A stretch of DNA of 64,000 bases from a virus (Duplodnaviria; Heunggongvirae; Uroviricota; Caudoviricetes). Made by a program: the position numbers and the translations under genes. Where the stretch lies: the IMG/VR virus record IMGVR_UViG_3300024269_000002; one strand, written 5' to 3'. Positions 6,855-52,137 of this stretch are shown here, one piece after another (positions within the stretch are counted from its first letter, which is position 1; each line of letters begins with the position of its first letter). Below the pieces are notes generated by a model. It saw nothing but the letters and a program-made list of their open reading frames with translations, was not told where the DNA came from and ran no database searches.

Positions 6855-7196
6855 ATGACGTATGCGGAAGAGACAACAGCTGTTGTTAAGATCTGGATCG
6901 ATGATGTTCGTCCTGCTCCTCCCGGATACAAGTGGATAAAATCCACAAATGAAGCCATTCGATATCTTCAAGAATGTCAGTGGTACGATCGCTATGTTGT
7001 TGATGTCTCTCTGATCATCGATATTGATCATGATGCAGGAGATTATGCAGCTGATGGTGGTGACTACATTAAGATACTCGATTGGATGGAAAGTGAGCGT
7101 CTTGGCGCTACATTCCACATTCACTCTATGAACCCTGTTGGAGTTCAAAATATGAGAAACATCATTCAGAAAAATGGTTGGAGGGAAATGAGATGA
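6855..7196 (+). CDS. receiver-like small protein (cREC-type REC-fold, DHD..G motif)
   Basis: KIWIDDVRP...W...IDIDHDAGD...GGDYIKILDWM pattern, recalled as the cREC / cyclic-phosphate-processing receiver family; GGAGGA RBS. Confidence 0.45.
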   Translation: MTYAEETTAVVKIWIDDVRPAPPGYKWIKSTNEAIRYLQECQWYDRYVVDVSLIIDIDHDAGDYAADGGDYIKILDWMESERLGATFHIHSMNPVGVQNMRNIIQKNGWREMR

Positions 7197-22590: not shown

Positions 22591-22595
22591 TTTTA

Positions 22596-30836: not shown

Positions 30837-31279
30837 GAAGAGTTACAGTATACCGAAAGAAACCAACACGACAGTCTCTTGAAGTAGATCTTGTTGTTCA
30901 CAAGGAGATGCTTGAACAAGCTGAAATTGAGATCTGTCGCCATAAAGACACTATCGACACGCTTCAGAAAGAACTTGTAGAAGCTCATGACAAGCTGCAT
31001 CAACTGGAGAGGGCTGTTGTAACTCAATCTTGTTGTTGGATGTGTGCTAACAATCTAATGTGTCACCAAGGACGAGAGTTGCCTCAAAGTCCAGATGTTG
31101 CTTGTGGTAATTTCAAGTTCGGTTACAAAACATCAGAAAAACACAGTGACACTGTTTGTGATTACAAACATGGAAAAGTATGTTGGGCTCAGAAGGGTGC
31201 CCCTTTGTGTGATCCGGTGTTCTGTCCAGTAAAGGAGAAACGTCCAAGTGAAAACATTAACTTCGTGGCTACAAAATGA
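30833..31279 (+). CDS. Cys-rich protein with N-terminal coiled-coil
   Basis: CCWMCANNLMCH...C..C..C cluster. Confidence 0.45.
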   Translation: MRRVTVYRKKPTRQSLEVDLVVHKEMLEQAEIEICRHKDTIDTLQKELVEAHDKLHQLERAVVTQSCCWMCANNLMCHQGRELPQSPDVACGNFKFGYKTSEKHSDTVCDYKHGKVCWAQKGAPLCDPVFCPVKEKRPSENINFVATK

Positions 31280-31511
31280 CGCAAAAGATTGTGGTTTGTG
31301 CGACCCTCCGATGAAAGCTCAAGAAGCTGTTGACTTCCTAAAGAACTATCTTCTCGGAGAGAACTGGTATGTTACAATGCCACAGAATGCAGAACAGTGT
31401 AATACTGCAATTGTAATTGAAATCTTATGCAAGTATTCTCCGAAATTCCGTAAGGAATTGAAAGAGGCAAAGAAGGAGAAGAAACGTCGTGAGAAGAATA
31501 AGCACATATAA
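31248..31511 (+). CDS. hypothetical protein with basic KKEKKRREKNK tail
   Basis: ORF in track. Confidence 0.4.
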   Translation: MKTLTSWLQNDAKDCGLCDPPMKAQEAVDFLKNYLLGENWYVTMPQNAEQCNTAIVIEILCKYSPKFRKELKEAKKEKKRREKNKHI

Positions 31512-36665: not shown

Positions 36666-36893
36666 ATGGACAGAATAAGAGACATCACAGTTAGGGGCAG
36701 ATTTCATCCTGAGTGTCAAGGTTGTAAGAAACTTGTTCTAGAGCGAAACGGTTACGATGATGTCTGGAACTGTTGTTTTTATTTCCAGTGTGGTAATCAG
36801 TTAGCTCATTCTGGAAAATGCATCGGAACTGATAATCATGAAGAACCATTACCGCTGTTAAAGCAGGAGAGTGAATATGTCGGACACGCATGA
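36666..36893 (+). CDS. small Cys-rich protein
   Basis: CQGC...CCFYFQC. Confidence 0.4.
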   Translation: MDRIRDITVRGRFHPECQGCKKLVLERNGYDDVWNCCFYFQCGNQLAHSGKCIGTDNHEEPLPLLKQESEYVGHA

Positions 36894-37143
36894 ATTGAAA
36901 ATACTACCGCAATACTTTCAAGCTGTTTGGGATGGTAACAAAAACTTTGAATTACGAAAGAACGATCGAGATTACAAAGTTGGTGATTATCTTGTTCTAC
37001 GAGAGTATTCAGGCGCTGGATATACGGGTTCATTCCTGAAAGTGGTTATTACATACATCTTGAAAGATTGTCCTGAATATGGATTAAACAAGGATTACTG
37101 TATACTTGGTATCAGACGTACTAGTGGGTATGTAGTTGATTAA
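36886..37143 (+). CDS. ASCH-superfamily protein (DUF3850-like)
   Basis: HELKILPQYFQAVWDGNKNFELRKNDRDYKVGDYLVLRE matches the DUF3850/ASCH beta-barrel signature. Confidence 0.5.
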   Translation, partial: THELKILPQYFQAVWDGNKNFELRKNDRDYKVGDYLVLREYSGAGYTGSFLKVVITYILKDCPEYGLNKDYCILGIRRTSGYVVD

Positions 37144-38088: not shown

Positions 38089-38107
38089 AATTGATTTTGA
38101 ATAATAG

Positions 38108-38146
38108 GATGCACTCTCTGTTTCGAGAGTGCATTTTTTATTTTAC
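38108..38146 (+). terminator. rho-independent terminator
   Basis: gcactctc-tgtttc-gagagtgc stem followed by ATTTTTTATTTT. Confidence 0.8.
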
Positions 38147-38148
38147 AG

Positions 38149-38177
38149 TTGAATAATCTTACCTCATCATTTATAAT
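38149..38177 (+). promoter_or_regulatory. conserved promoter TTGAAT-N17-TATAAT
   Basis: acagTTGAATaatcttacctcatcattTATAAT. Confidence 0.55.
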
Positions 38178-38206
38178 AACAGTATAAATAAGAGGAGGTT
38201 ATGATC

Positions 38207-39406
38207 ATGACCTACACTATTCACTCTGTTCTTCTTGAGCGTTTCGAGAATAAGCTGAAGAGCTTCCAGCGTAAGTTCGCCAAGTATGGAGACGGAAAGC
38301 TCGTGTACTCCGTTTCCGAGCCATACATCTACGAGTTCGATGCTAACGTTGATGGCTCTATTGAGGCATTTGATGGCCGTGAAGTTATCGACATTACTGT
38401 CGAGGGTGAATACAAGATCAACGATTATGAGTTCGTTGCAGCTCTTCAGTTTGATTCTGAGTCTGGTCGTAACATCGTCAATGGCGGCAACGTTCCTGAG
38501 GAGTTCCTGACTCGGTGCGCTTGTGATCATTGTAAGACGAGTCGTGCTCGAGTTCGGACAATCATTCTTCGCAATGGCGATGAATACATCCAGGTCGGTA
38601 ATTCCTGTGTGAAGGATTACCTCGGTGTCAACATTGAGCGATATGCAAGTTATCTGAGCTTCTGGCATGATCTGGAGGAGTTGGAAGAGGACAACAAGAT
38701 GATGATTGTCTCCGCTCGTCCTGCTTATCTTGTTGAAGATGTGCTGTTGGAAACTGCGTGGCGTGTTGCTAAGTCTGGCTATGTCAGTAAGGAGAAGGCC
38801 TGGGAGTGGGAAGTTGATGCAACTTCTAGCGCTGTTTGGAATGCTCTCCATTCTCATATCAATCATGAGTACACCGATGAGCACAGAGCCGCTGTTGCAG
38901 CTGTTGTTGAATTTGTCAACAGTCAGGATGAAGACTTCGGTTATGTTTCTAATCTGAAGTCTCTGATCAACAACAAGTATGTTACTAACAAGAACTTCGG
39001 ATTGCTGGTTAGTTCCTTTGGATACTATGCTGCAGAGATGCGTAAACTGGAAAGAGAAAAGGCTGAACAAGTTACTGCTAATAGCCAGTGGATTAAATCT
39101 GTTGGTGAAAAGATTAAATTTGTTGCACAGCCTACTCTGATCTTCTCTATGGAAACTCAGTGGGGTTACTCTTACTTGTATAGATTCATCTTGGATGGCA
39201 ACGAGCTGATTTGGAAAACCGGAACTTGGCTGGACACTGACATCGAGTATGAAGTTTCTGGAACCATCAAAGCTCACAATGAATATCGTGGCAAGAAGCA
39301 GACTGAACTCACTCGTTGCAGAGTTAAAGAAATTGCTCGCAAGTTCAAGGAAGAGAAAGTTGACACTGATGTTTCTGAAACTCCTGATTGGTGGAACATG
39401 ATTTAA
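38207..39406 (+). CDS. hypothetical protein (about 400 aa), strongly codon-optimised
   Basis: GGAGG RBS 8 nt upstream of the ATG at 38207; high GC3/C-ending codons; an antisense 465-aa ORF was judged an artefact. Confidence 0.6.
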   Translation: MTYTIHSVLLERFENKLKSFQRKFAKYGDGKLVYSVSEPYIYEFDANVDGSIEAFDGREVIDITVEGEYKINDYEFVAALQFDSESGRNIVNGGNVPEEFLTRCACDHCKTSRARVRTIILRNGDEYIQVGNSCVKDYLGVNIERYASYLSFWHDLEELEEDNKMMIVSARPAYLVEDVLLETAWRVAKSGYVSKEKAWEWEVDATSSAVWNALHSHINHEYTDEHRAAVAAVVEFVNSQDEDFGYVSNLKSLINNKYVTNKNFGLLVSSFGYYAAEMRKLEREKAEQVTANSQWIKSVGEKIKFVAQPTLIFSMETQWGYSYLYRFILDGNELIWKTGTWLDTDIEYEVSGTIKAHNEYRGKKQTELTRCRVKEIARKFKEEKVDTDVSETPDWWNMI

Positions 39407-39469
39407 GTTGAACTTTCTTTCAGGATAAACAATAATTATATTGATAACATACTTAGGAGGCAACAAATC

Positions 39470-39820
39470 ATGTACGTTGACACTGACGGAATTGCGGAGC
39501 TCTTTATCGGATTTATCATAATTCTCGTAGTTGCATTCGTGATAGGCATTGTTCTCGGGATCGTTCAATGGGTTGGAAGCTATCCTTTAGAAGACACGAT
39601 GTTACAATGTGAAGTTGTACATCTCAACATTGTAGAGAACCGTTATGTTGTTACAATGTTGTGCGATGGTAACGGACTGAAAATCTACACTGACCTAGAT
39701 ACATATGCAAAGTTACATGTTGGTGATATGTGTGAAGTCTTACGAACTGGAAAGTATGTACCGCTTCAAGGTAATGTGTACAATTACAAGATTATGACAA
39801 TGAGGGAGGATAATGAATGA
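39470..39820 (+). CDS. small membrane protein
   Basis: N-terminal TM helix; GGAGG RBS. Confidence 0.5.
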   Translation: MYVDTDGIAELFIGFIIILVVAFVIGIVLGIVQWVGSYPLEDTMLQCEVVHLNIVENRYVVTMLCDGNGLKIYTDLDTYAKLHVGDMCEVLRTGKYVPLQGNVYNYKIMTMREDNE

Positions 39821-40056
39821 TGTTTATCGGAAGGGCTGTTCAGAAGGTTTTGAAAGAGTGGCGCAGTGAGTCAAGAAATCCTCACTTGTGTCTATACAAA
39901 GGTGATGGTGATACAATCATCATCTATACTGATCGACCGGGCTACATGATTGGTAAAGGTGGACAGCTTGTTGACAAGTATCGCAAGAAAATTTCAGAGG
40001 CATCTTTCGGCACTATCAAGAATGTCTCCTTTGTTGAAACTTACGGAATCTTCTAA
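39817..40056 (+). CDS. KH-domain RNA-binding protein
   Basis: GXXG loop in context RPGYMIGKGGQLVDKYRKKI (type-II KH / KH_4-like). Confidence 0.45.
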   Translation: MMFIGRAVQKVLKEWRSESRNPHLCLYKGDGDTIIIYTDRPGYMIGKGGQLVDKYRKKISEASFGTIKNVSFVETYGIF

Positions 40057-40065
40057 GGAGACAAG

Positions 40066-40191
40066 ATGGAAGCACTTATTTGGTGTTTAATATTCTTATC
40101 AATACTTTCAACACTTACAGTGCTCTCCTGTATGAAAGTTTCAGGAAAGTGCAGTGATGCGGAAGAAAAGAAGAAACAGGAGAAAGCATGA
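40066..40191 (+). CDS. small hydrophobic peptide (41 aa, below the track cutoff)
   Basis: ATG after AAGGAG; MEALIWCLIFLSILSTLTVLSCMKVS...; ATGA overlap with the next gene. Confidence 0.35.
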   Translation: MEALIWCLIFLSILSTLTVLSCMKVSGKCSDAEEKKKQEKA

Positions 40192-40937
40192 ACTGTCCAA
40201 TATGTAACAAAGAGTTGACTCTTATTGAGGGTCGAGACATTTTAGGAAACCCCAGATTTAACTATGTTTGTGAGTCCGAAGGAGCTCCTCACTTCATGAC
40301 GGATTCATATGCACGAAAGGAGGATGCTATGGCTGAGGTTGAGAGCGGAAACAGCTATTCAAAAACAAGTAATGAAGCGTACTGGAAGCACGGGAATAAT
40401 GACACTATATACTGTTCGCACTGCGCTGTAATTGTAGGAAAGGCTCCTACAGATGCAATGTATCGCAGTATTCTGGAAAATAACAAATTCTGTAAAAACT
40501 GCGGAAGATCTATGAAAGCGGAAGTAACTCCTCCGATCCGTGCTGAAGAAATTCCCAAAACAATCACTGTTGCAGAATATAACAAGATCTGGCACAAGAA
40601 GCACTCAAATGCTGAATCTTTCATAAAGCTGCTTGATAGTTCTGTTGCTAAATCGGGAGCTTATGATATTGTTATGCATCAGCTGAAGTGTATCGGCTGG
40701 CCCGAAGTTCAGCCTACACTACTTGCTGCCCTTGAAATGTATAAACAGATCATGAAATCGAAATGTGCAGGAAAAACTTGTCACACAGAATACCGTCAAG
40801 TGACTTTGTGTGAGAACTGTGGTAAGTGTTTAATGATTACCGATGATGGATGCATCTGCAAGGACCGGGGCGTAATGCCCATTGACGGATTCTGTAGCTA
40901 TGGTTACCCGAAGGAGCAAGATGGTTCAGCTAACTAA
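40188..40937 (+). CDS. multi-zinc-ribbon protein
   Basis: At least five CxxC pairs spread along 249 aa. Confidence 0.5.
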   Translation: MNCPICNKELTLIEGRDILGNPRFNYVCESEGAPHFMTDSYARKEDAMAEVESGNSYSKTSNEAYWKHGNNDTIYCSHCAVIVGKAPTDAMYRSILENNKFCKNCGRSMKAEVTPPIRAEEIPKTITVAEYNKIWHKKHSNAESFIKLLDSSVAKSGAYDIVMHQLKCIGWPEVQPTLLAALEMYKQIMKSKCAGKTCHTEYRQVTLCENCGKCLMITDDGCICKDRGVMPIDGFCSYGYPKEQDGSAN

Positions 40938-41238
40938 GGAAGAAACAATTCAGCAGCTTGCATGTGGGATATGCTCAGTTACAGCTAACCGAGGTGAGTG
41001 TACTGGCTGCTCTTTTGCAAAAAACAGCTCTTGTGAACATTTTAGAGCAGCTGAAATCTTGTACGCAAGAGGATTTCGTAAAACTGAAGAGTCTGTTACA
41101 GGAGAGTGGATCCGATGCAATGGACCAACATATTCGTACTTTCGATGTTCAATCTGCAATGATTGGCAGATGACACAGTTGCCTCGGTGTATGAAATGTA
41201 TGACAAAGATGCGAAATATAACGGAGTTTGAACTATGA
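40921..41238 (+). CDS. zinc-ribbon protein
   Basis: CGIC...CTGC...C..C...CSIC...C.KC. Confidence 0.45.
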   Translation: MVQLTKEETIQQLACGICSVTANRGECTGCSFAKNSSCEHFRAAEILYARGFRKTEESVTGEWIRCNGPTYSYFRCSICNDWQMTQLPRCMKCMTKMRNITEFEL

Positions 41239-41852
41239 TCAAGATAAGCACACGACTTGAAAAGATCAGCAAGTTCCTTGCACTTATTCTGAGACATAAG
41301 CCCGATGCAGCTGGCATAACGCTTGATAAACATGGGTGGGCGGATGTCAACGAACTCGTTCGAGGAATTCGAAGCACAAAAGATCCGACATTCACACACG
41401 ACGATTTGACACTCATTGTTGTCACTGACTCAAAAGGAAGATACTCCTTTGATGAGTCTGGAAAACGGATAAGAGCGAATCAAGGGCATTCAGTTGAAGT
41501 TGATGTTGAGTTAGAAGAGATTGAACCTCCGACATTATTGTATCATGGAACAGCCACAAAGTACATTGACTCCATTGAAGCTGAAGGCATCGTCTCAAAA
41601 TCTAGACTGTATGTACATCTTTCGGAAACAGTTAGTACTGCAACTGAAGTTGGTAAACGGCACGGCAAGCCTGTAGTTTACACAATCCACGCAAAAAAGA
41701 TGTTTGATCATGGTTACAAGTTCTATAAGTCTGTCAATGGTGTGTGGCTAACAGAAACAGTACCTACTGAATATTTTGGATACAAAATCTTTGATTGGAC
41801 AGGTGTTGAGGAAACAGATGAGATATACAACAAAAATCAGACTTCCAGTTGA
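41235..41852 (+). CDS. kptA: RNA 2'-phosphotransferase Tpt1/KptA
   Basis: SKFLALILRHKP...GWADV; KGRYSF...RIRANQGHS; LYHGT; VHLS; NGVWLTETVP. These are canonical Tpt1 motifs. Confidence 0.85.
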   Translation: MIKISTRLEKISKFLALILRHKPDAAGITLDKHGWADVNELVRGIRSTKDPTFTHDDLTLIVVTDSKGRYSFDESGKRIRANQGHSVEVDVELEEIEPPTLLYHGTATKYIDSIEAEGIVSKSRLYVHLSETVSTATEVGKRHGKPVVYTIHAKKMFDHGYKFYKSVNGVWLTETVPTEYFGYKIFDWTGVEETDEIYNKNQTSS

Positions 41853-42069
41853 AAAAAGCAACTTTCATTCCTACACGCTGAGCCACAATGTTGTTCAACA
41901 ACTACTTGAAATGCTGAGCAAAGAATCAAACATCGTTTCAGTTGAGTGGGAAAACGGTGATTGTATAGCTACAGTTGAGATACTGAGTCCTGTCACTCTT
42001 GAGCCAACTTATAGCTCTTTAGAACTATTTGTAAGGGATATTATCAACCAGAATTCTGGTAAAAACTGA
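41818..42069 (+). CDS. hypothetical small protein
   Basis: ATG inside the end of the kptA gene; ORF in track from 41776. Confidence 0.4.
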   Translation: MRYTTKIRLPVEKSNFHSYTLSHNVVQQLLEMLSKESNIVSVEWENGDCIATVEILSPVTLEPTYSSLELFVRDIINQNSGKN

Positions 42070-42153
42070 TACCTTGCTTATAGCACATTATCCTAACTAA
42101 TATAAATTATATATTGAATATTGCTCCTTGCACAACTTAAAGCACAAGGTAAC

Positions 42154-42188
42154 AAAGAGGTAGTTAACAGCTACCTCTTATTTTATAG
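42154..42188 (+). terminator. rho-independent terminator
   Basis: aagaggtag-ttaacag-ctacctctt stem followed by ATTTTAT. Confidence 0.75.
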
Positions 42189-42217
42189 TTGAATGATTAC
42201 AACTGTTATTTTATAAT
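42189..42217 (+). promoter_or_regulatory. conserved promoter TTGAAT-N17-TATAAT with AACTGTT
   Basis: atagTTGAATgattacAACTGTTattttTATAAT (near-identical to the promoter at 8375). Confidence 0.6.
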
Positions 42218-44030: not shown

Positions 44031-44252
44031 ATGTTTGATAAAATTGTTGAATCAATGTTACAGTTTAGTAATACATTCTGGATGTTGCTCTGTGTTCTTA
44101 TCTTTGCAATGACAGGTTCTTTTGAGGGTATGCTGATCAGTGGCGTGTTTGCTGTTGTAGTACTCATCATGGAGCTATTCAGTTGCATTCAGAGAGCAAA
44201 GAAAAATAAACGACGTAAGGAACGGACTCATGGAAATCAGAAAGTTACATGA
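44031..44252 (+). CDS. small membrane protein with basic tail
   Basis: GAGGAG RBS; two TM helices; KKNKRRKER tail. Confidence 0.5.
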   Translation: MFDKIVESMLQFSNTFWMLLCVLIFAMTGSFEGMLISGVFAVVVLIMELFSCIQRAKKNKRRKERTHGNQKVT

Positions 44253-47200
44253 ATCAGATGAGCTTCAAGATAGAGCTAAGAAACACAAGAAAAACAACAA
44301 AGGACTCAGTTTTTACTGTACTCTAAATCCGGATGCAGGAAATGTTGAGCATAATGTTGCAATGTTTAATCATATGAATACTCCAGCCGAAAGTCCTTCT
44401 GTTAATCCTTGTGGTCCGATGGCTGAAGCTATGAATACAGATGAGGTTTCACATCTATTCAAGTTGCATGTTGGAGATATTGTTGAATATGAAGGTCAAG
44501 AGTTTACTGTTGACGCTATACGCAATGATCCTGATCATACAGAGCTTGTTCCTTCGATGCTGAAACTTGGAGATGACTGGGTTCCTGAAGAATGGGTTGC
44601 CCTGAATTTTGATCATAAACTAAGAGAGGATAATAGTAAGATGGATTCACAGATTGAATTGAATTACACCGATCTTGAAGTGACCATTGTTACAAGACCT
44701 CGCAGACCTTCCAGTTATCATTTTGAGTATGATCGAGATGAAGCACAGACAGTTGAAGAGACGATTGATTACGAGTTTGCTGTTCCGAGATCTGATATTG
44801 TGGATTTCATCTATGAAAACATGACTGAAAATGATTTTGCAGATATCGATACTGCAACTGAGGCTGAGGTACTTGAATTCATTAACAAGAATTTTGACAC
44901 ATTGTTTGCCAAATATGAGTCAATGATTTTGGACGCTTATAGAGATCGAGCAAGAGAAGACGCAGAGGAACATATGAACGAATCATTAACAAATAAAGAG
45001 CTCGGTGAAGCTACTTGTGGCGTAGAGAAGTTTGTTTCATCACTCGGAAAAGATCTACATGAAGCTTTTTTGAGTAAGTTGATTGATAGTAATACTTCTG
45101 AAGAGCTTCTCAGATTAGAAGCTCTGTATGAGAAGTATGCTCGAGCACACGATGATATGCATACACAGAAGATTGTTGAAAAGGTTAGATCTGCAATTGC
45201 TTCATGCGCAGAAAATACTCAACCCTTAGCTGAGTCGGTGAATGAATACGTTATCATGGCAGTATGTAGCGATGGTAAAAAACAGTATTACAATGTTTCT
45301 TCAGCACCACACTGGGTAGCTAAAGCCAAGGATGCAACAATCTTTGATGACATGGACGAGGCAAGAGCTGTCTGGTTCAAGTTGGATAAGAAATCTTTCA
45401 AGAGAGTATTCATTCCTAACTACGATCATGAAAAAATGAACGAGGCTGTTGACATTGACAAACAGTATCAGCTTGACCTTCTGCTTGACCGCATCGAAGA
45501 AGTTATGGACTGGAAACTCAACAAGAAGTGTAAGACAAGAACTCTTGGCAATAATACTTATCGTGTTGTTCATACTTCTGGAAACACTTCAATGATTGTT
45601 AGATTTGATGTTTCCGACCCTGTCAAGCCACTCACTTTCATGATTGATAAGAAAGGTCCATTCACTGCAAAGAATGAGTCAGAAGCGGCTAATATCATCT
45701 TACGTGAGCTTCAGAACAAACACTCTGACTCATTTGATATGTTTAAGAATGAGGGTTTGAGTGATAGAATTCGTAAGAACGACTTGAACTATGATGATGA
45801 GCTTGATGCTTATCTTGCATCTGAGGGTGATACAGAAGTGCAGTTCCAAGATCGTGAAACTCATACACATGAATTCCGCACAAAGAAAAATCAGTGGGGA
45901 AGAAGTTATGTTGATGGGCAGTACAATACACAACCCAAAGTAGCTTCTCATACTTGGGGTCGTGTTTGGAAAGATGGTAAACTTGTAAAACAGTCTGAAG
46001 GTCCAAAGTATCAAGTAAGAGCTGATATTGCAAAATATCTTGATTCTGAAGGTAACTTGGATGAGTCTAAAATCCCTGACAACTGGACTAAGTATCGTGG
46101 AGCTTGGATGTATCCAGTTTATGGTGGATGGGAAGCAAATCTTGATGGCTTACATTATGAAGCTGAAACTGAAGATGAATTGAAGTTAAAGATTGATTCT
46201 GCAGTTCGTGATGGGTATACAAAGGATAACAAACTAGCACCGTTGTATCGAGATACACTACCAGCTTATGGTGGTATGCTCGATGAGGCTTGGAGTCCCG
46301 ATTACATTGATTGCCCTGTTTGTGGCGATATTTCATTTGACGCAAAGAGGGGCAGATGCACTCAGTGTGCATATCGTGAATCTGTTGAGGACGATACTGA
46401 CGATTTAGAGCATCCTGATCAAGAGTTTGATTCTGCAAAGACCTCTATAAATTCTACTAAGTTACCTGCGGTTTACAGAATGGTTAAGATTCCTCAAGGA
46501 ACTACTGGTGTTGACTTCGGTGGTGGATCTTTTGATAATGCAGTAGAGCACATCCGTGATCTTGGAGCAACTCTATGCGTCTATGATCCTTATAATCGTT
46601 CCGCAGAGCATAATCGAGAAGTTATCAAGACATTGAAAGGTAACGGCGGTGCTGACTGGGCTATCAACTCAAATGTTTTGAACGTTATCAAGGAACCTGA
46701 AGCTCGTAAAGCTGTTTTACAGAATATTTCAAAGATTACAAAATCTGGCGCTCCTGTTTACATTACTGTCTACGAGGGTCGTGGAGATGGTAAAGAAGGA
46801 GCTACTAAGTCAGGTTATCAGTTGAATCGTAGAACTCAAGATTACCTTGCTGAAATTCAAGAAGTATTTCCTGATGCAGTACGTAAGGGTAAGTTGATTA
46901 TTGCTCATAACGGCAGAGGACATGTTAACGAAAGTAACAATGCCTATAGTTACAAAGATTACACAATCATCGATGCTGGTTCTGGTTGGAAAGTTAAGGA
47001 TGCTTCTCAGAAGTGGGTTGGCAACGAATTTGCAACCGATAGAGACGCAGAGGAGTTTGTTGACTCTCTGAATGAGTCCTTTTTGGACAGCGATGATAAC
47101 TACGAGTATGTAGCTAGTAAGTCAGTACTTGATTCAGATGGTTTCTATACTGATTACACTTGGTACAAGAACATTGATGGTGTGAATGTATTCGTGTTTG

Positions 47201-49119
47201 GTGACAATGATATCTACAAGCCTGCTGATGGTTACATTGATCATGAAGAGGAAGATGATACCGCTGCTCAGGAATGGTTTGATTCTTACAACGGATTTGA
47301 AGAAGATATTGTTGACGAGAACTTAGATACAAGCAATGATGTCTTCTGTGTCGATGACCAGTTGGAATGGACTGACTTGTCTGGTGTGAAGTTCCGAGCA
47401 CTTGTAACTGATGTCAATGATGATGTTGTAGTTCTCGATATGATGCCCGTAAGCGGAGCTCCTGTTACCAGAACTTTTGAGCTAACTTGTGACTCTAATG
47501 GCAAGGAATGTATCATTGTTGATATGGCCTCCGATAAGAGTGATGCTGTTTATGTTTATCCTCCATATGAAGATCTTGAAGAGAGCACTGCTTCAAACAA
47601 AGTAGTATATCCTAACGGTGAACCTGTTACAGATATTGATCTGAATCGTGCACTTGATTATATGTACGGTACTGATAGAAATCCTGAGTGGACATACACT
47701 GATGCAGAGATGCAGCGGGCAATTTACTACTGGATGGATAAGACTGATCCACATCCATCAGGAAAGTCTTACATGAGCTTACAAGAATCCTACAACATCA
47801 AGTTCTATCAAATTTTCCAAGCCCCATCTAAGCCTACAGAAAATGGTAAGATGATTGGCCAGAGAGATACTCTGAGTGCTGCCATTGACTTCGGAGAGGA
47901 TCGTTGTGGTCCTGGAAAGTTCTTTATCAAGGGTGTTTGCGATGATGGCAAAACTAGATACGTAGATTTCTTTAGAAAAGCAAGGGGTTATGTTCCTTTT
48001 GCCAACTACAAAGATGACGTAACAGAATCTTTTGAAGATGATGGACCAGTTTATGTTGCATCTTCAGTTGAGAGTCTGAACAACTACTGTGCTGGTTTAG
48101 GTGACGCTTGTAAAAGATTACGTGATGGAAACATGTGTTCTTATCGTGGTTATGAAGTAGAATTTGTCGATGGTGAGTACAATGTGTTCTTGCTGGAATC
48201 AATGAACGAATCCTTTGATGACTATCATTATGCAGTTTACAACAATGATGCTCTTTTGAGAGACAAGCTCTGGAGTGTCTCTGACGCACTTGAGTTCATT
48301 CATGCAAATGGTGGCAACATTATCAAACTTTCAAAAGATGGTGTTGATACTGTTATCTGGAAAGATGGTAAGGCAGTTGGAAGCGGATTTATCGGTAAGG
48401 GCATAGATGCTGATGGAAACGATGTTCACTTTGAAGATGGTGAAGATGTTCCAACTCATGCAGCTCCAGAACCTTTCAATCCTAGAAAGTGGTTGTACGG
48501 TGAGTCAAAAGAAAACCGACCTCTGTACATTATCAGAGACAGTCACGGAAATCAACTATCTGCTCCTAATCCTGACGACGAAGAGCTGTGGGATAGAGTT
48601 GCTTCTATGGAAGCAAGAGGAAGACGTGGACTGTGTGTAGTTGCTTATACCGGCAAGAAAGAATCACTGAAAGAGTGGAATGAATTCAGTGATGACGATG
48701 TTGAAGATGATTTGACTCATGCAGCTGTTTACGGCGGCGATAGCAAGTACTGCAAAGAATGCGGTGCTGTAAAGAAATATGATGAGGACGGCTTTTCATA
48801 TTGTCCTGAGTGCTGTGGTGAACTTGACGAGTCCTACTGGTACAATGATCCTGAACTTCGTCAGAAACAAGATCAGCTAATTTCTGAATTAGAAGCTGAT
48901 GGATTTGAAGAAACAGATGGTCAATCATATGGCACTAAGCATTGGACATTCTTCCGCAAGAGAGTTGATGGTAAGGGAGTCTGGAAAGCAATCTTTGTTG
49001 ATACTGGATCAAAAGAAGCTGCAATAATTGATGTAACTTATGGTCAAGTTCGTGGTTATGAGCCACTTGATAGTTTCGATGCTCTAAGAAGAGATCTTGG
49101 AAACAAGTTATTGCCATAA
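44230..49119 (+). CDS. giant protein (1629 aa) with central Rossmann/SAM-methyltransferase-like segment and zinc ribbons
   Basis: Uninterrupted 4.9-kb ORF; VDFGGGSFDNAVEH...CVYDPY resembles MTase motifs I and II; CPVCG...CTQC and CKECG...CPECCG ribbons. Confidence 0.6.
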   Translation: MEIRKLHESDELQDRAKKHKKNNKGLSFYCTLNPDAGNVEHNVAMFNHMNTPAESPSVNPCGPMAEAMNTDEVSHLFKLHVGDIVEYEGQEFTVDAIRNDPDHTELVPSMLKLGDDWVPEEWVALNFDHKLREDNSKMDSQIELNYTDLEVTIVTRPRRPSSYHFEYDRDEAQTVEETIDYEFAVPRSDIVDFIYENMTENDFADIDTATEAEVLEFINKNFDTLFAKYESMILDAYRDRAREDAEEHMNESLTNKELGEATCGVEKFVSSLGKDLHEAFLSKLIDSNTSEELLRLEALYEKYARAHDDMHTQKIVEKVRSAIASCAENTQPLAESVNEYVIMAVCSDGKKQYYNVSSAPHWVAKAKDATIFDDMDEARAVWFKLDKKSFKRVFIPNYDHEKMNEAVDIDKQYQLDLLLDRIEEVMDWKLNKKCKTRTLGNNTYRVVHTSGNTSMIVRFDVSDPVKPLTFMIDKKGPFTAKNESEAANIILRELQNKHSDSFDMFKNEGLSDRIRKNDLNYDDELDAYLASEGDTEVQFQDRETHTHEFRTKKNQWGRSYVDGQYNTQPKVASHTWGRVWKDGKLVKQSEGPKYQVRADIAKYLDSEGNLDESKIPDNWTKYRGAWMYPVYGGWEANLDGLHYEAETEDELKLKIDSAVRDGYTKDNKLAPLYRDTLPAYGGMLDEAWSPDYIDCPVCGDISFDAKRGRCTQCAYRESVEDDTDDLEHPDQEFDSAKTSINSTKLPAVYRMVKIPQGTTGVDFGGGSFDNAVEHIRDLGATLCVYDPYNRSAEHNREVIKTLKGNGGADWAINSNVLNVIKEPEARKAVLQNISKITKSGAPVYITVYEGRGDGKEGATKSGYQLNRRTQDYLAEIQEVFPDAVRKGKLIIAHNGRGHVNESNNAYSYKDYTIIDAGSGWKVKDASQKWVGNEFATDRDAEEFVDSLNESFLDSDDNYEYVASKSVLDSDGFYTDYTWYKNIDGVNVFVFGDNDIYKPADGYIDHEEEDDTAAQEWFDSYNGFEEDIVDENLDTSNDVFCVDDQLEWTDLSGVKFRALVTDVNDDVVVLDMMPVSGAPVTRTFELTCDSNGKECIIVDMASDKSDAVYVYPPYEDLEESTASNKVVYPNGEPVTDIDLNRALDYMYGTDRNPEWTYTDAEMQRAIYYWMDKTDPHPSGKSYMSLQESYNIKFYQIFQAPSKPTENGKMIGQRDTLSAAIDFGEDRCGPGKFFIKGVCDDGKTRYVDFFRKARGYVPFANYKDDVTESFEDDGPVYVASSVESLNNYCAGLGDACKRLRDGNMCSYRGYEVEFVDGEYNVFLLESMNESFDDYHYAVYNNDALLRDKLWSVSDALEFIHANGGNIIKLSKDGVDTVIWKDGKAVGSGFIGKGIDADGNDVHFEDGEDVPTHAAPEPFNPRKWLYGESKENRPLYIIRDSHGNQLSAPNPDDEELWDRVASMEARGRRGLCVVAYTGKKESLKEWNEFSDDDVEDDLTHAAVYGGDSKYCKECGAVKKYDEDGFSYCPECCGELDESYWYNDPELRQKQDQLISELEADGFEETDGQSYGTKHWTFFRKRVDGKGVWKAIFVDTGSKEAAIIDVTYGQVRGYEPLDSFDALRRDLGNKLLP

Positions 49120-49214
49120 ATCTTAATATAGAATCTTGTAGCCGGTGCTGTTGATTTCAGCACCGGCTACAATTGTATATCACTATGTACTATTATATGT
49201 GAAGGAGATATACA

Positions 49215-52037
49215 ATGGCATTTACTGCAAGTAAACTACTAGAAATTGCTATTGCCGAGCTTGGCTACAAAGAAAAAGCTTCTAACTTTCAGCTCGATGA
49301 TAAAGAAGCCAATGCTGGTAGTGGCAACTGGACGAAATATGCTCGTGATCTTCACACCGCAGGATATTATCAAGCAGCTAAGAACGGTTATGCATGGTGT
49401 GACATGTTTGTTGACTGGTGCTTCTTACAGCTTGGTGGCAGCAAAGAAAAAGGCGAATGGCTCGAATGCCAAACAGGACTTTATGGTGCAGGATGCGAAT
49501 GGTCATCTAACTGTTATCGTTGGGCAGATCGTTGCGGAACTGAGCCGAAAGTCGGTGCACAAATCTTCTTTGCTAAAAACGGTAAAGGATCTGAAGAGCA
49601 TACAGGTATTGTAGAAAAGTTTGACAGTAACTATGTTTACACAATTGAGGGTAACGCAAGTAACATGGTAAAGCGTAAAACATACGCTCGTAATTCTGAT
49701 TACATCCTGTGTTATGGATATCCAAGATTTGATGAGACTACAAATGAGACGCAAGCAACAACTTCAACAATTGCTGCTGATCATTTTGACAAAGGGGATG
49801 TCGTTAAGATTGTTTCTGGCGCTAACTGGTTAAGTGGATCTGCTGTTCCTACATGGGTGATCAAGAAGGAATGGATTATTAAAGAAGTTTCTACTTCTGA
49901 TGGTAGAGTTGTTGTCAATGAATCAGTTGATGGAGCAAACAAGATCAATAGTCCTATTCACTATTCTTCTCTAGTTCTTGTTAAGGCTGCTAATCCGAAA
50001 GAGGATAAAGTTGAAACAGAGCTGGACGGAGGAAACAAGGAAACTGAGGTTGCTCAAAGTAGTTTGAAGTATTCTACTGCAAATCCGCCGCTTGTTTGTA
50101 TGCAGACTCAGAGCACTTGTTATAAGGGCACAACCGAAATGACTGTTCTTGGTGTGCTGTGGCATAGTACAGGTGCAAACAACAAGACTATCAAGCGCTA
50201 TGTTCAGCCTAGTGACAATGATCCAAACAAAGATGCTCTGCTTAAGTTAATCGGTAAGAATCAGTATAACAATGACTGGAACCATATTGACAGACAAGCT
50301 GGTTTGAATGCTTGGATTGGTACATTAGCTGATGGCACAGTTACGACCGTTCAGACAATGCCCTGGAACTTTAGACCTTGGGGCTGTGGAAGTGGTAAGA
50401 ATGGTTCTTGTAACAGTGGCTGGATTCAGTTTGAGATCTGTGAGGATAACTTACAAGACGCTGACTATTTCAACAAGGCATACACAGAAGCTTGCGAGCT
50501 AACTGCGTATCTTTGTAAGATGTTTAATCTTGATCCTCATGGAACCATTAACTATAATGGAGTTAAAGTTCCCGTTATCCTTTGTCATGCAGATTCTTAT
50601 GATCTTGGTTTCGGATCAAATCATGGTGACATTGATCACTGGTTCCCGAAGCATGGTAAGTCAATGGTAACAGTAAGAAATGATGTTGCAAAGTTACTCC
50701 AGAATTCAACACAAGCTGCTCCAGTAGAAGGTGTATACCAGAAGGGTGTTGCAACTCAGCTTTCTAAGAATTTCAAATCAACTGAATTTGATTGTCATGG
50801 AGATGGCTGTTGCACTACAACAGAAGTAGATCCAAAACTTGTTACTTATTTACAAACAATTCGTGATCATTTTGGCAAGGCTGTTAATATTAGCAGCGGA
50901 TATAGATGTGCAACACACAACAAGAGTGTTGGAGGAGCTGTTGGTTCAAGACATACAAAAGGTCAAGCAGCTGATATCTATATTAACGGTGTAACTCCTT
51001 TGGAGATTGCTCGTTACGCAGAACAACTTGGCATCTTAGGAATTGGTTTATATGAAACTGATGAAGATGGTCATTTTGTACATGTTGACACAAGAGCGAC
51101 AAAGTCATTCTGGTATGGACAAGCACAAGCTAAGAGAGATACATTCCAAGAGCCTGTTAAAATTGATATATCAAAAGTTAACACAGCAAAAGCTGATCCG
51201 AAGCATGTTTGGGACTTCTTGAAAGCAAAAGCATTGAATGATTTTGCAGTGGCTGGTTTGATGGGCAATTTGCTTGCTGAGTCAAACATGTTACCAATCA
51301 ACTTGCAAAACACTTATGAGAAGAAGCTCGGTATGACAGACGCTGAGTATACAGCAGCAGTTGACCAGGGAATCTACAAAGATTTCGTCAAAGATAGCGC
51401 AGGCTATGGTCTAGCTCAGTGGACATACTACAGCCGTAAGGAAGACTTGTTGGAGTATGCTACTTCTCAGAAGAAATCAATCGGTGATTTAGATATGCAG
51501 CTGGAATTCTTGTGGACTGAGCTTCAAAGATACAAGGCTGTTATGAAGCAGTTGAATGAAGCAACTTCAGTTAGGGAAGCTTCTGATGTAATTCTTCATG
51601 ACTATGAAGCTCCTGCTGATCAAAGCGAGGCTGTTGAAATCAAGCGTGCTGAATTTGGACAGAAGTATTTTGATGACTATGCCGTATGTATGCACAAGTC
51701 AACAGAAATTCAGAACCAGAAAGATGCAACTTGTACAGAAGCTGGATATACAGGTGATAAGGTATGCTCTGAATGTAACTTTGTAGTAGAAGTGGGGTCA
51801 CTTATTCCTCCTATTCAGCACAACTATAGCTTGACAGGAAAGCTTGAGCCTACAATTGAAACAGAAGGCTACACTGGAGATCAAGTTTGTTCAAGATGCA
51901 ATCATACAATCAAGGGAGAAGCAATCAAGAAGTTGAGTCCGATTGTTGTTACTCCTGAAGATGATGAGGTTAAGATTACTATCAAGAAGAGCTGGATCCA
52001 GAAGTTGATTGAGTGGTTGCTCAGCTTGTTAAAATAA
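49215..52037 (+). CDS. polyvalent peptidoglycan hydrolase (CHAP + amidase_2-like + M15 peptidase + tail-lysozyme domain + Cys-rich repeats)
   Basis: CHAP: AWCDMFVDWC...EEHTGIV...TIEGN. Amidase_2-like: VLGVLWHSTGANN...GWIQFEICED. M15: SGYRCATHNKSVGGAVGSRHTKGQAADI...DGHFVHVD. Lysozyme: AGLMGNLLAESN...GYGLAQWTY. Confidence 0.75.
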   Translation: MAFTASKLLEIAIAELGYKEKASNFQLDDKEANAGSGNWTKYARDLHTAGYYQAAKNGYAWCDMFVDWCFLQLGGSKEKGEWLECQTGLYGAGCEWSSNCYRWADRCGTEPKVGAQIFFAKNGKGSEEHTGIVEKFDSNYVYTIEGNASNMVKRKTYARNSDYILCYGYPRFDETTNETQATTSTIAADHFDKGDVVKIVSGANWLSGSAVPTWVIKKEWIIKEVSTSDGRVVVNESVDGANKINSPIHYSSLVLVKAANPKEDKVETELDGGNKETEVAQSSLKYSTANPPLVCMQTQSTCYKGTTEMTVLGVLWHSTGANNKTIKRYVQPSDNDPNKDALLKLIGKNQYNNDWNHIDRQAGLNAWIGTLADGTVTTVQTMPWNFRPWGCGSGKNGSCNSGWIQFEICEDNLQDADYFNKAYTEACELTAYLCKMFNLDPHGTINYNGVKVPVILCHADSYDLGFGSNHGDIDHWFPKHGKSMVTVRNDVAKLLQNSTQAAPVEGVYQKGVATQLSKNFKSTEFDCHGDGCCTTTEVDPKLVTYLQTIRDHFGKAVNISSGYRCATHNKSVGGAVGSRHTKGQAADIYINGVTPLEIARYAEQLGILGIGLYETDEDGHFVHVDTRATKSFWYGQAQAKRDTFQEPVKIDISKVNTAKADPKHVWDFLKAKALNDFAVAGLMGNLLAESNMLPINLQNTYEKKLGMTDAEYTAAVDQGIYKDFVKDSAGYGLAQWTYYSRKEDLLEYATSQKKSIGDLDMQLEFLWTELQRYKAVMKQLNEATSVREASDVILHDYEAPADQSEAVEIKRAEFGQKYFDDYAVCMHKSTEIQNQKDATCTEAGYTGDKVCSECNFVVEVGSLIPPIQHNYSLTGKLEPTIETEGYTGDQVCSRCNHTIKGEAIKKLSPIVVTPEDDEVKITIKKSWIQKLIEWLLSLLK

Positions 52038-52057
52038 CGGTTATTTCACATACAAAG

Positions 52058-52095
52058 AATGAGGTGCTATTCGCGTAGCACCTCATTTCTTGTAT
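52058..52095 (+). terminator. terminator-like hairpin
   Basis: aatgaggtgcta/tagcacctcatt 12-bp stem followed by TCTTGTAT. Confidence 0.5.
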
Positions 52096-52137
52096 ATAAA
52101 GTATATAGATCAAACTTTGAGGAAGGATGTTGATAGT

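What the first reader, a model, noticed from the sequence alone, without database searches (positions are those of the whole stretch)
38149..42188. Operon ending in a phage-encoded Tpt1/KptA RNA 2'-phosphotransferase, with KH-domain and multi-zinc-ribbon proteins
One promoter-to-terminator unit (promoter 38149, terminator 42154) carries eight genes: a codon-optimised 400-aa unknown protein, a membrane protein, a KH-domain (IGKGG) RNA-binding protein, a 41-aa hydrophobic peptide, two multi-CxxC zinc-ribbon proteins, and a clear Tpt1/KptA, followed by a small ORF overlapping its 3' end. Tpt1 removes 2'-phosphates from RNA junctions using NAD+, and can ADP-ribosylate 5'-phosphorylated nucleic acid ends. 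It is uncommon in phages and has no obvious role in a canonical phage cycle. Its pairing with RNA-binding and zinc-ribbon proteins suggests either an RNA-repair pathway that counters host anticodon-nuclease or RNA-targeting defence (a partner ligase may lie elsewhere), or an NAD+-dependent nucleic-acid-modification activity. Either reading may be undescribed.
Basis: partly seen in the sequence, partly recalled or inferred. Interest (0 to 1): 0.75.

Follow-up and report, generated by a model that had tools for sequence, protein, structure and literature searches.

The report
Jumbo-phage operon carrying a Tpt1 enzyme
A real eight-gene early operon of a ~223-kb gut/rumen jumbo phage ends in an intact NAD+-dependent RNA 2'-phosphotransferase (Tpt1/KptA), but this enzyme type is already catalogued in jumbo phages as a presumed RNA-repair accessory, and its KH and zinc-ribbon neighbours show no link to it outside this phage lineage.

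Summary
A sigma-70-type promoter (38149-38177) and a terminator (42155-42179) bracket eight tightly packed + strand genes, each preceded by a Shine-Dalgarno motif. The Tpt1 call is solid: Pfam PF01885 E=9e-46, full length; catalytic tetrad R20-H21-R69-R124 invariant; dN/dS about 0.11-0.14.

Phage Tpt1 is uncommon (98 of 50,697 phage records) but already annotated (PHROG 5470). Iyer et al. 2021/2022 already describe it in jumbo phages and propose an RNA-repair role.

The KH protein and the Cys-rich proteins are confined to this phage lineage. The 399-aa first gene belongs to a huge uncharacterised phage family with a C-terminal OB fold, and that family is far more widespread than Tpt1. Outside the lineage no neighbour travels with Tpt1.

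The genome does invest in translation and NAD+-linked conflict: at least 22 tRNAs, a cREC cyclic-phosphate domain protein and a Tad8 Thoeris inhibitor. I found no RNA ligase, kinase, 2H or Macro gene in the 84 of 223 kb I could read. The closest annotated phage Tpt1 (phiCD211) does share its genome with RtcB.

Verdict: a new member of a known kind, of modest interest. The substrate of phage Tpt1 is still untested.

The parts
38106..38137 (+). Intrinsic terminator of the upstream unit (13-bp stem, T run)
   Evidence: sequence read
38149..38177 (+). Sigma-70-type promoter TTGAAT-N17-TATAAT, one of 15 copies of a phage promoter cassette. It lacks the AACWGTT spacer element present in most of the others.
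   Evidence: (15 found vs 0.85 expected, all + strand)
38207..39406 (+). Gene 1, 399 aa: member of a very large uncharacterised phage family (phrog_2319). Invariant C106-x-H108-C109...R115...G131..C134 motif and a C-terminal OB fold (about residues 300-378). Highest codon adaptation and strongest purifying selection in the operon. Probably a nucleic-acid-binding protein.
39470..39820 (+). Gene 2, 116 aa, a single-pass membrane protein. Absent from relatives L003, L017 and L018.
   Evidence: Kyte-Doolittle peak 3.4
39817..40056 (+). Gene 3, 79 aa, a type-II KH-like domain protein (GKGG at 46-49). Restricted to this phage lineage.
   Evidence: KH_2 E=4e-5, 23.8 vs cut-off 22; weak hits to the ribosomal protein S3 KH region; 19 clusters only; dN/dS 0.05-0.13
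40066..40191 (+). Gene 4, 41-aa hydrophobic peptide. Doubtful: it has an SD motif and a weak L003 homologue, but no codon-usage signal.
40188..40937 (+). Gene 5, 249-aa Cys-rich protein: N-terminal CxxC, a central C76xxC79...C102xxC105 zinc ribbon and a C-terminal Cys cluster. Lineage-restricted and fast-evolving. Its end abuts or overlaps the Tpt1 start in relatives.
   Evidence: 8 clusters; AF2 pLDDT 62, uninformative
40921..41238 (+). Gene 6, 105-aa protein with 10 Cys, in a ~300-nt segment absent from L003/L017/L018. Its frame is favoured over the JGI 69-aa call (40964-41173). Its stop overlaps the Tpt1 start (ATGA).
41235..41852 (+). Gene 7, Tpt1/KptA RNA 2'-phosphotransferase, 205 aa. 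Catalytic tetrad R20, H21, R69, R124, with a 24-residue C-terminal tail beyond the canonical domain.
   Evidence: PF01885 E=9e-46, 2-176/177; 7kw8 E=1e-50; phrog_5470 E=9e-73; tetrad invariant in 34 sequences; dN/dS 0.11-0.14; published numbering
41818..42069 (+). Gene 8, 83 aa, unknown function. It overlaps the Tpt1 3' end by 35 nt, and the overlap is conserved in relatives (17-23 nt).
42155..42179 (+). Intrinsic terminator ending the unit (11-bp stem, T run). The next promoter cassette starts at 42189.
6855..7196 (+). Context, not part of the operon: cREC (cyclic-phosphate-processing receiver) domain protein. It is the only other candidate RNA-end/ADPr>P-processing enzyme seen in this genome.
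   Evidence: PF20274 E=6e-17

Best explanation
The region is one early-type transcription unit of a ~223-kb jumbo phage whose host is probably a Lachnospiraceae/Oscillospiraceae-type Clostridium from gut or rumen. Host RNA polymerase reads it from one of many near-identical sigma-70-like promoter cassettes.

Its seventh gene encodes a catalytically competent Tpt1/KptA. [quoted passage not shown]

Most likely (inferred, not shown) it is a stand-alone accessory enzyme of the phage's translation-protection toolkit. That toolkit includes at least 22 phage tRNAs, peptide deformylase and cREC. On this reading host metal-independent RNases cut tRNA or mRNA and leave 2',3'-cyclic phosphate ends. A cyclic phosphodiesterase (cREC or a host 2H enzyme) opens these to 2'-phosphates. 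Tpt1 then clears the 2'-phosphate, either at the end or at a ligated junction, so the RNA becomes usable again.

The co-transcribed OB-fold/Zn protein, KH protein and Cys-rich proteins are lineage-specific neighbours. They are plausibly nucleic-acid binders, but nothing shows that they work with Tpt1.

Confidence by part: about 0.95 that this is an active Tpt1 in a real operon, and about 0.45 that its role is RNA-damage repair.
For: Identity: full-length PF01885 match. E=1e-50 to solved Tpt1 7kw8 over 175 residues. The tetrad equivalent to Runella R16-H17-R64-R119 (PMC6097658) is R20-H21-R69-R124, invariant in 34 homologues. dN/dS is 0.11-0.14 against three related phages.

Expression unit: recurrent promoter cassette, flanking terminators, SD motifs and overlapping start/stop codons.

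Retention: a distinct Tpt1 clade 70-98% identical sits on contigs of ~217-254 kb.

Repair context: an array of at least 22 tRNA genes next to the window start. cREC at 6855-7196. The closest annotated phage Tpt1 (phiCD211, 52% identity) shares a strand and 13 kb with RtcB and a peptidyl-tRNA hydrolase. The published comparative analysis assigns jumbo-phage KptA to RNA repair. A clostridial Tpt1 (C. thermocellum) removes terminal 2'- and 3'-phosphates in vitro (PMC6573784).

Solo status: no shared neighbour outside the lineage. KH and Zn249 are lineage-restricted. The 399-aa family occurs in 299 phage records against 98 for Tpt1, including T4-like phages that lack Tpt1.
Against: No RNA ligase, polynucleotide kinase, 2H or Macro gene was found in the 84 kb examined (precomputed Pfam; tblastn with phiCD211 RtcB and Pth; PHROG/Pfam on large unknown proteins).

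cREC is 34 kb away, and its activity is itself only predicted.

RtcB-type ligation leaves no 2'-phosphate, so even the phiCD211 co-occurrence does not define a need for Tpt1.

No 2'-phosphate-generating ligase is known in bacteria or phages, and the natural substrate of bacterial Tpt1 is unknown (PMC6097658, PMC6573784).

Rnl2-bearing phages (1,394 records) are overwhelmingly not Tpt1 carriers.

No phage Tpt1 has been tested experimentally in the literature searched.
Confidence: 0.5

Rival explanations
1. ADP-ribose capping. The phage Tpt1 mainly transfers ADP-ribose from NAD+ to 5'-monophosphate ends of RNA or DNA. This could shield phage RNAs or tRNA fragments from 5'-phosphate-dependent decay (RNase J-type enzymes in Firmicutes), or it could block host nucleic-acid ends.
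For: The activity is established in vitro for Tpt1/KptA enzymes and the Streptomyces homologue SCO3953 (reviewed in PMC11833690). Nothing in the sequence excludes it, because the same active site is used. The absence of a visible ligase partner fits a role that needs no ligase.
Against: The physiological relevance of 5'-phosphate ADP-ribosylation is itself unclear, and it may be a side reaction. No Macro/PARG-type reversing enzyme was seen nearby. There is no phage-specific evidence.
Confidence: 0.15
2. Dedicated RNA-processing module. The core conserved in the lineage (399-aa OB/Zn protein, KH protein, Cys-rich protein, Tpt1, 83-aa protein) forms a complex in which the nucleic-acid-binding partners deliver a specific RNA to Tpt1.
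For: Co-transcription and translational coupling. The five genes stay adjacent in three relatives whose Tpt1 is 73-79% identical while other genes come and go around them. Three of the partners have nucleic-acid-binding features: OB fold, KH and zinc ribbon.
Against: All these relatives are syntenic over tens of kb, so the adjacency is uninformative. KH and Zn249 exist nowhere else. The 399-aa family is about three times more widespread in phages than Tpt1 and occurs without it. Tpt1 elsewhere has unrelated neighbours. Tpt1 enzymes act as monomers without partners in published biochemistry (established knowledge).
Confidence: 0.1
3. Erasure of internal 2'-phosphate marks, or action on small NAD+-linked molecules. 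The enzyme might remove 2'-phosphate modifications from tRNA (as archaeal KptA erases 2'-phosphouridine-47 written by the ArkI kinase; recalled from Ohira et al. 2022, not checked here). Alternatively it might act on phosphorylated nucleotides or defence signals as part of the phage's NAD+-centred counter-defence.
For: The genome carries other NAD+/ADPr-conflict genes: Tad8, a type II Thoeris inhibitor (PF25189 E=8e-29), and cREC. Authors of the Tpt1 biochemistry explicitly raise non-RNA substrates for bacterial Tpt1 (PMC6097658).
Against: No kinase 'writer' or known 2'-phosphorylated signal is implicated. Tad8 and cREC are 10 and 34 kb away in other transcription units. This is pure inference.
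Confidence: 0.1
4. Recently captured host gene with no role for the phage (a passenger or remnant).
For: The closest cellular homologues are in the presumed host group, at 53-58% identity. Its GC3 (0.36) is lower than that of most operon neighbours (0.40-0.47; only the 83-aa gene, at 0.34, is lower).
Against: It forms a distinct clade retained across a family of ~217-254-kb phages at 70-98% identity. pN is far below pS, the active site is invariant, and it is translationally coupled on both sides.
Confidence: 0.03

Closest known systems
KptA/Tpt1 of jumbo phages as catalogued by Iyer, Anantharaman, Krishnan, Burroughs and Aravind (Viruses 2021, PMC7824862; Viruses 2022, PMC9503650); PHROG phrog_5470
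   Same: Same enzyme family in the same kind of genome (jumbo caudovirus), accompanied by many tRNAs and a cREC domain protein. The same proposed role applies: NAD+-dependent clearing of 2'-phosphates in RNA repair.
   Different: A new lineage: no DNA match in 50,697 phage records, and the best phage protein match is 54%. The host group is Clostridia rather than Proteobacteria. No ligase, 2H or Macro partner has been seen so far.
KptA of Clostridioides difficile phages phiCD211 / phiCDIF1296T / phiCD5763 (LN681537.2 CEK40506.1)
   Same: Closest annotated phage homologue (52-54% identity over 87% of the protein). A Firmicute host, a large genome and a DUF3850/ASCH gene upstream in both.
   Different: phiCD211 is a 131-kb temperate/plasmidial siphovirus carrying RtcB and a peptidyl-tRNA hydrolase 11-13 kb from kptA. 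No such genes were found here. No KH, Zn-ribbon or 399-aa homologues lie next to its kptA.
Runella slithyformis Tpt1 (PDB 7KW8/7KW9) and Clostridium thermocellum Tpt1 (6E3A/6EDE)
   Same: Best solved relatives (E=1e-50 and 5e-34), with an identical catalytic tetrad and motif set. [quoted passage not shown]
   Different: These are cellular enzymes. Runella's cluster contains HD-Pnk and a ligase, which this operon lacks. The two enzymes differ in terminal-phosphate activity, and sequence alone cannot say which this protein resembles.
Bacteriophage T4 Pnkp + Rnl1 tRNA repair against PrrC
   Same: It works like this in outline: a phage enzyme heals RNA ends damaged by a host nuclease so that translation can continue.
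   Different: The chemistry and family are unrelated. T4 uses a kinase-phosphatase and leaves a clean junction with no NAD+ and no 2'-phosphate. T4-like phages carry Rnl2 (1,394 records) but not Tpt1.
Fungal/plant tRNA splicing: Trl1 ligase + Tpt1
   Same: The defining Tpt1 reaction, removal of the junction 2'-phosphate.
   Different: It needs a ligase that requires and retains a 2'-phosphate. None is known in bacteria or phages and none was found here. No short-intron tRNAs were found in the phage tRNA array.

Membership tests
Tpt1/KptA RNA 2'-phosphotransferase (PF01885) | Full-length match to the family profile above the curated threshold | tested here: met
   Pfam 156.6 bits vs 26, profile positions 2-176 of 177. 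PHROG 5470 E=9e-73.
Tpt1/KptA RNA 2'-phosphotransferase (PF01885) | Catalytic Arg-His-Arg-Arg tetrad (Runella R16-H17-R64-R119; E. coli R21-H22-R69-R125) | tested here: met
   R20, H21, R69 and R124, mapped on the 7kw8 alignment with the published numbering. All are invariant in 34 sequences.
Tpt1/KptA RNA 2'-phosphotransferase (PF01885) | Two-lobe architecture alignable end to end with solved Tpt1 structures | tested here: met
   Residues 7-181 align to 3-176 of the 178-residue 7kw8 chain at E=1e-50, plus 12 further Tpt1 chains. This is by sequence only; no model of this protein was built.
Tpt1/KptA RNA 2'-phosphotransferase (PF01885) | NCBIfam equivalog threshold (NF002014) | tested here: inconclusive
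   237.8 bits against a cut-off of 239, missed by about 1 bit.
Tpt1/KptA RNA 2'-phosphotransferase (PF01885) | NAD+-dependent removal of RNA 2'-phosphate (enzyme activity) | not testable with these tools
   Needs recombinant protein or yeast tpt1-delta complementation.
Phage NAD+-dependent RNA-repair system (KptA + cyclic phosphodiesterase + RNA ligase, Iyer et al.) | A 2H or cREC cyclic-phosphate phosphoesterase in the same genome | tested here: met
   cREC PF20274 E=6e-17 at 6855-7196. It is 34 kb away in another transcription unit, and its activity is only predicted.
Phage NAD+-dependent RNA-repair system (KptA + cyclic phosphodiesterase + RNA ligase, Iyer et al.) | An RNA ligase (Rnl1/Rnl2/RtcB) in the same genome | tested here: inconclusive
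   None in 84 of 223 kb. The remaining 139 kb could not be fetched.
Phage NAD+-dependent RNA-repair system (KptA + cyclic phosphodiesterase + RNA ligase, Iyer et al.) | Enzymes that dispose of ADPr>P / ADPr-1''P (2H, Macro, Nudix) | tested here: inconclusive
   No Macro, 2H, NADAR or Nudix domain among the precomputed Pfam calls for the 84 kb.
   A single promoter and terminator, SD motifs and overlapping reading frames. This is a prediction only, with no transcript data.
   No shared neighbour in IMG/VR loci, 19 Clostridia genomes, phiCD211 or Alexandravirus. KH and Zn249 are found only in this lineage.
KH domain (type II, PF07650) | Profile match above threshold, with a GxxG loop between two helices | tested here: met
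   23.8 bits vs 22, covering only 28 residues. GKGG at 46-49. Weak hits to the KH region of ribosomal protein S3. This is a marginal call, and no structure was predicted.

The most novel reading that the evidence does not exclude
The core conserved within the lineage (OB/Zn 399-aa protein, KH protein, Cys-rich protein, Tpt1, 83-aa protein) is a dedicated RNA-end-processing complex. Its RNA-binding subunits would target Tpt1 to a particular substrate, for example phage tRNAs or the adjacent ROOL RNA. The result would be a new, ligase-independent use of NAD+-dependent 2'-phosphate removal or 5'-phosphate ADP-ribose capping in phage infection.
Probability: 0.08. Interest if true: 0.65.

Novelty: new member of a known kind. 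Interest (0 to 1): 0.27.

Why it matters
The natural substrate of bacterial and phage Tpt1 is a long-standing open question: the enzyme is widespread in organisms that have no known way of making RNA 2'-phosphates. This finding does not answer it.

It adds a well-delimited example that is under purifying selection and is predicted to be expressed early. The example comes from a gut/rumen jumbo phage that also carries a large tRNA array, a cREC domain protein and a Thoeris inhibitor. It also shows that Tpt1 travels as a solo gene, not as part of a fixed operon.

For annotation, the operon can be labelled with confidence. For discovery, cultivable Tpt1 phages (phiCD211-like, Alexandravirus) are better experimental entry points than this uncultured one.

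Tried and rejected
1. ASCH/DUF3850-Tpt1 linkage. A DUF3850 gene lies 3-4 kb upstream of Tpt1 here and 0.4 kb upstream in phiCD211. But DUF3850 occurs in 580 phage records, including small phages without Tpt1, and it is absent next to Tpt1 in the other loci. I judged it a coincidence.

2. cREC-Tpt1 co-occurrence across phages. tblastn with the window's cREC found only 4 records and none carries Tpt1. The search was too insensitive to settle the question.

3. Linkage of the 399-aa family to RNA ligase. In Aeromonas phage Aeh1 the homologue lies 3 kb from rnlB. Klebsiella and Vibrio T4-like phages have rnlB without it. Rejected.

5. Structure of Zn249. The model has pLDDT 62 and pTM 0.33, so no fold search was run.

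6. Reaching the unseen 139 kb. The contig is not in IMG/VR. Look-ups are limited to 10 kb around window genes. Scans with a promoter-cassette pattern returned only fragments of relatives, encoding thymidylate synthase/DHFR, a PurA-like enzyme and a metallophosphoesterase but no ligase.

7. tRNA splicing. No short-intron tRNAs were found in the array; one ARAGORN 'intron' call lies inside a protein ORF.

8. Defence-system membership. PADLOC gave no match.

9. The antisense 465-aa ORF is a shadow ORF.

10. My own first assignment of the third catalytic Arg to R80 was wrong. It is R69. Both residues are invariant.

Full report
**What is there**

The window is the first ~64 kb of a 222,986-bp metagenomic contig (JGI 3300024272, Ga0257077_10000181). 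Near-identical, circularly permuted copies of ~223 kb, and a ~252-254-kb variant, occur in other samples. Almost all genes are on the + strand. The gene content is that of a jumbo caudovirus: type II topoisomerase subunits, dUTPase, dCMP deaminase and giant lysin-domain proteins. No phage record matches at the DNA level.

The finding's coordinates are accurate. A strong terminator (38106-38137) closes the preceding unit. A TTGAAT-N17-TATAAT promoter follows at 38149-38177. The next + strand terminator of comparable quality is at 42155-42179, and a further promoter follows at once at 42189.

The generic promoter scan is barely above background (29 found against 22 +/- 4 expected). This particular motif is not a chance match, however. 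With at most one mismatch it occurs 15 times, always on the + strand and always intergenic, against 0.85 expected. The copies share flanking elements: an upstream terminator, YAG before the -35 box, RTATAA after the -10 box, then GGAGG and ATG.

**Genes of the operon**

Between the promoter and the terminator lie eight ORFs. Gaps are 0-63 nt, and four junctions have overlapping start and stop codons. Each best start is preceded by a Shine-Dalgarno motif.

I adjusted three starts: 38207 for gene 1, 40921 for gene 6 and 41818 for gene 8.

Gene 6 is the one real ambiguity. JGI calls a 69-aa ORF in another frame and codon statistics do not discriminate between the two. All ten cysteines are kept and substitutions are conservative among natural variants, while variants in the other frame include charge-changing replacements. 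There is an SD motif before ATG 40921 and none before the JGI GTG start. The stop overlaps the Tpt1 start as ATGA.

The 41-aa ORF is doubtful because it has no coding signal.

A 465-aa antisense ORF across gene 1 is a shadow ORF.

**Tpt1**

The 205-aa product of 41235-41852 matches PF01885 over the whole profile (E=9e-46). It also matches the PHROG family annotated as RNA 2'-phosphotransferase (E=9e-73) and thirteen solved Tpt1 chains, the best being 7kw8 at E=1e-50. It misses the NCBIfam equivalog cut-off by about one bit.

I counted along the 7kw8 alignment using the published numbering for Runella Tpt1, in which R16, H17, R64 and R119 are each essential (PMC6097658). The tetrad here is R20, H21, R69 and R124. 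All four are invariant in an alignment of 34 homologues spanning 43-98% identity.

Against three related phages pN is far below pS, giving dN/dS of 0.11-0.14. dS is close to saturation, so the ratio is rough.

**How unusual is it?**

tblastn finds Tpt1 in 98 of 50,697 phage records. Most are Erwinia/Dickeya Alexandravirus jumbo phages, followed by Klebsiella and Serratia phages, the ~131-kb C. difficile phiCD211 group, and Bacillus and Listeria phages. Many of these records already annotate the gene.

Two comparative-genomics surveys state explicitly that some jumbo phages encode KptA. They propose that it removes 2'-phosphates left after 2H/cREC enzymes open the 2',3'-cyclic ends made by host RNases, feeding ATP-grasp RNA ligases, with Macro/2H enzymes disposing of ADPr>P (PMC7824862 and PMC9503650).

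So the gene is uncommon, but both the gene and the RNA-repair reading are described. I found no experimental study of a phage Tpt1.

**Do the neighbours belong with it?**

Within the phage's own lineage the block is stable: DUF3850, a 61-aa protein, the 399-aa protein, KH, the Cys-rich protein, Tpt1, the 83-aa protein and HTH_36. The lineage here means Tpt1 73-98% identical on contigs up to ~254 kb. The two membrane proteins, gene 6, the 213-aa protein and the dCMP deaminase come and go. These genomes are syntenic over tens of kb, so this stability says little about function.

Outside the lineage nothing is shared. IMG/VR contigs place Tpt1 beside integrase, ParB/DUF262-like and HicAB-like genes. 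Alexandravirus places it between a 351-aa unknown protein and a radical-SAM protein. Nineteen Lachnospiraceae/Oscillospiraceae genomes show various contexts.

The KH protein and the 249-aa Cys-rich protein exist only in this lineage, with 19 and 8 clusters among 5.8 billion proteins.

**Genome context relevant to function**

Directly upstream of the window start the genome carries at least 22 tRNA genes, a drum RNA and a complete ROOL RNA. The 3' part of that ROOL RNA is window 1-424.

The window also encodes a cREC domain protein (PF20274, E=6e-17), a family predicted to process cyclic phosphates. It further encodes a Tad8 type II Thoeris inhibitor (E=8e-29), a peptide deformylase and an HD-domain hydrolase. 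These fit a phage that protects translation and fights NAD+-based immunity.

I could read only 84 of the 223 kb: the window, 10 kb upstream and 10 kb downstream. That stretch contains no recognisable RNA ligase, polynucleotide kinase, 2H, Macro, NADAR or Nudix gene. Attempts to reach the rest failed.

In phiCD211, which carries the closest annotated phage Tpt1, RtcB and a peptidyl-tRNA hydrolase lie on the same strand within 13 kb of kptA. This is genome-level support for an RNA-repair association in a clostridial phage. RtcB chemistry does not itself create a need for Tpt1, though.

Rnl2-type ligases are concentrated in T4-like phages that lack Tpt1.

**Most likely mechanism**

Shown: the gene encodes an intact Tpt1 under selection, in a predicted early operon.

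[quoted passage not shown] Some family members, including one from Clostridium thermocellum, also remove terminal 2'- and 3'-phosphates.

Inferred: in this phage the enzyme heals RNA, most plausibly tRNA, damaged by host nucleases, with cREC or host enzymes opening the cyclic ends. I put this at about 0.45.

Rivals are 5'-phosphate ADP-ribose capping (0.15), a dedicated complex with the neighbours (0.1), and erasure of 2'-phosphate marks or action on small molecules (0.1). A functionless passenger gene is effectively excluded.

**Verdict**

This is a new member of a known kind, a jumbo-phage KptA, in a previously unsampled phage lineage probably infecting Clostridia. The closest cellular homologues are in Lachnospiraceae/Oscillospiraceae at 53-58% identity.

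Interest is modest. What would matter is the real substrate of phage Tpt1, and that remains open. This locus offers no special handle on it beyond a clean operon definition.

Noticed in passing
window 1-424 (full copy at L011 9142-9823): The window starts inside a ROOL RNA (Rfam RF03087). Window 1-424 matches model positions 240-574 at 183 bits, and the complete copy in a permuted contig scores 287 bits. It sits at the end of the phage tRNA array.
   Followed up: partly
L011 2335-9119 (immediately upstream of the window start in the circular genome): An array of at least 22 tRNA genes covering most amino acids, with a 'drum' RNA (RF02958, 64 bits) at L011 4263-4394 embedded in it. A variant genome (L010, 252 kb) has a different, 12-tRNA version. 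The window itself has no tRNA.
   Followed up: partly
L011 3387-3481 and 2882-2979: Two odd tRNA calls. One is a 95-nt tRNA-Ile(UAU), with a long extra arm or insertion. The other is a 98-nt stretch that Rfam scores as a full tRNA (37.5 bits) but ARAGORN does not call. No short intron was called.
   Followed up: partly
window, 15 sites from 3451 to 57687, + strand: A phage promoter cassette YAG-TTGAWT-N17-TATAAT-RTATAA occurs 15 times against 0.85 expected. Nine copies (3451, 8375, 13189, 13671, 16649, 20152, 29653, 37136, 42189) carry AACWGTT(A) inside the spacer, which may be an operator. The Tpt1 operon's promoter lacks this element.
   Followed up: partly
window 31248-31511: An 87-aa protein matches Pfam PF25189, the type II Thoeris inhibitor Tad8, over its full length (E=8e-29, 99.7 bits).
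   Followed up: partly
window 6855-7196: A 113-aa cREC (cyclic-phosphate-processing receiver) domain protein (PF20274, E=6e-17) lies next to a peptide deformylase gene (~6419-6838).
   Followed up: partly
window 38207-39406: The 399-aa protein belongs to a very large uncharacterised phage family (7,627 clusters at 50% identity; 299 phage records from T4-like to actinophages). It has an invariant C-x-H-C...R...G..C motif, a novel N-terminal/middle region and a C-terminal OB fold. It is highly codon-adapted, with dN/dS of 0.03-0.06. It may deserve study in its own right.
   Followed up: partly
proteins P0035, P0044, P0050, P0072, P0077, P0105 (Tpt1 homologues): Some Tpt1 homologues (59-66% identical) are 313-333 aa long. 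They carry a conserved C-terminal helical domain of ~130 aa that has no Pfam assignment.
   Followed up: no
window 36877-37143; L002 7395-7817: A DUF3850/ASCH (PUA-like, 'RNA-binding protein' PHROG 986) gene lies upstream of Tpt1 both in this lineage and in phiCD211. It is probably a coincidence, since DUF3850 occurs in 580 phage records.
   Followed up: yes
window 38171-39568, - strand: A 465-aa open reading frame lies antisense to the 399-aa gene. Its coding score is negative and it is interrupted in relatives L003 and L017, so it is a shadow ORF caused by codon bias.
   Followed up: yes
window 44230-56594: A run of giant proteins (1,629, 940, 852 and 649 aa). The last three carry multiple cell-wall hydrolase domains (Amidase_2, Peptidase_M15, M23, CHAP, Phage_lysozyme2). 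They are presumably virion-associated or ejection proteins. The 1,629-aa protein is mosaic between relatives.
   Followed up: no
window 27428-28411 and 22595-23260: A 327-aa protein has weak Hint/intein-like hits (PT-HINT, Vint). A 221-aa HD-domain protein (HD_4 weak; PHROG metal-dependent phosphohydrolase) may be a RelA/SpoT-type hydrolase.
   Followed up: no
L050 457-1686; L047; L049 (fragments of related phages from the promoter-pattern scan): Fragments of related phages carrying the same promoter cassette encode a PurA-like adenylosuccinate-synthetase homologue, thymidylate synthase plus DHFR, and a calcineurin-like metallophosphoesterase. Whether the window's own genome has these genes is unknown.
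   Followed up: no
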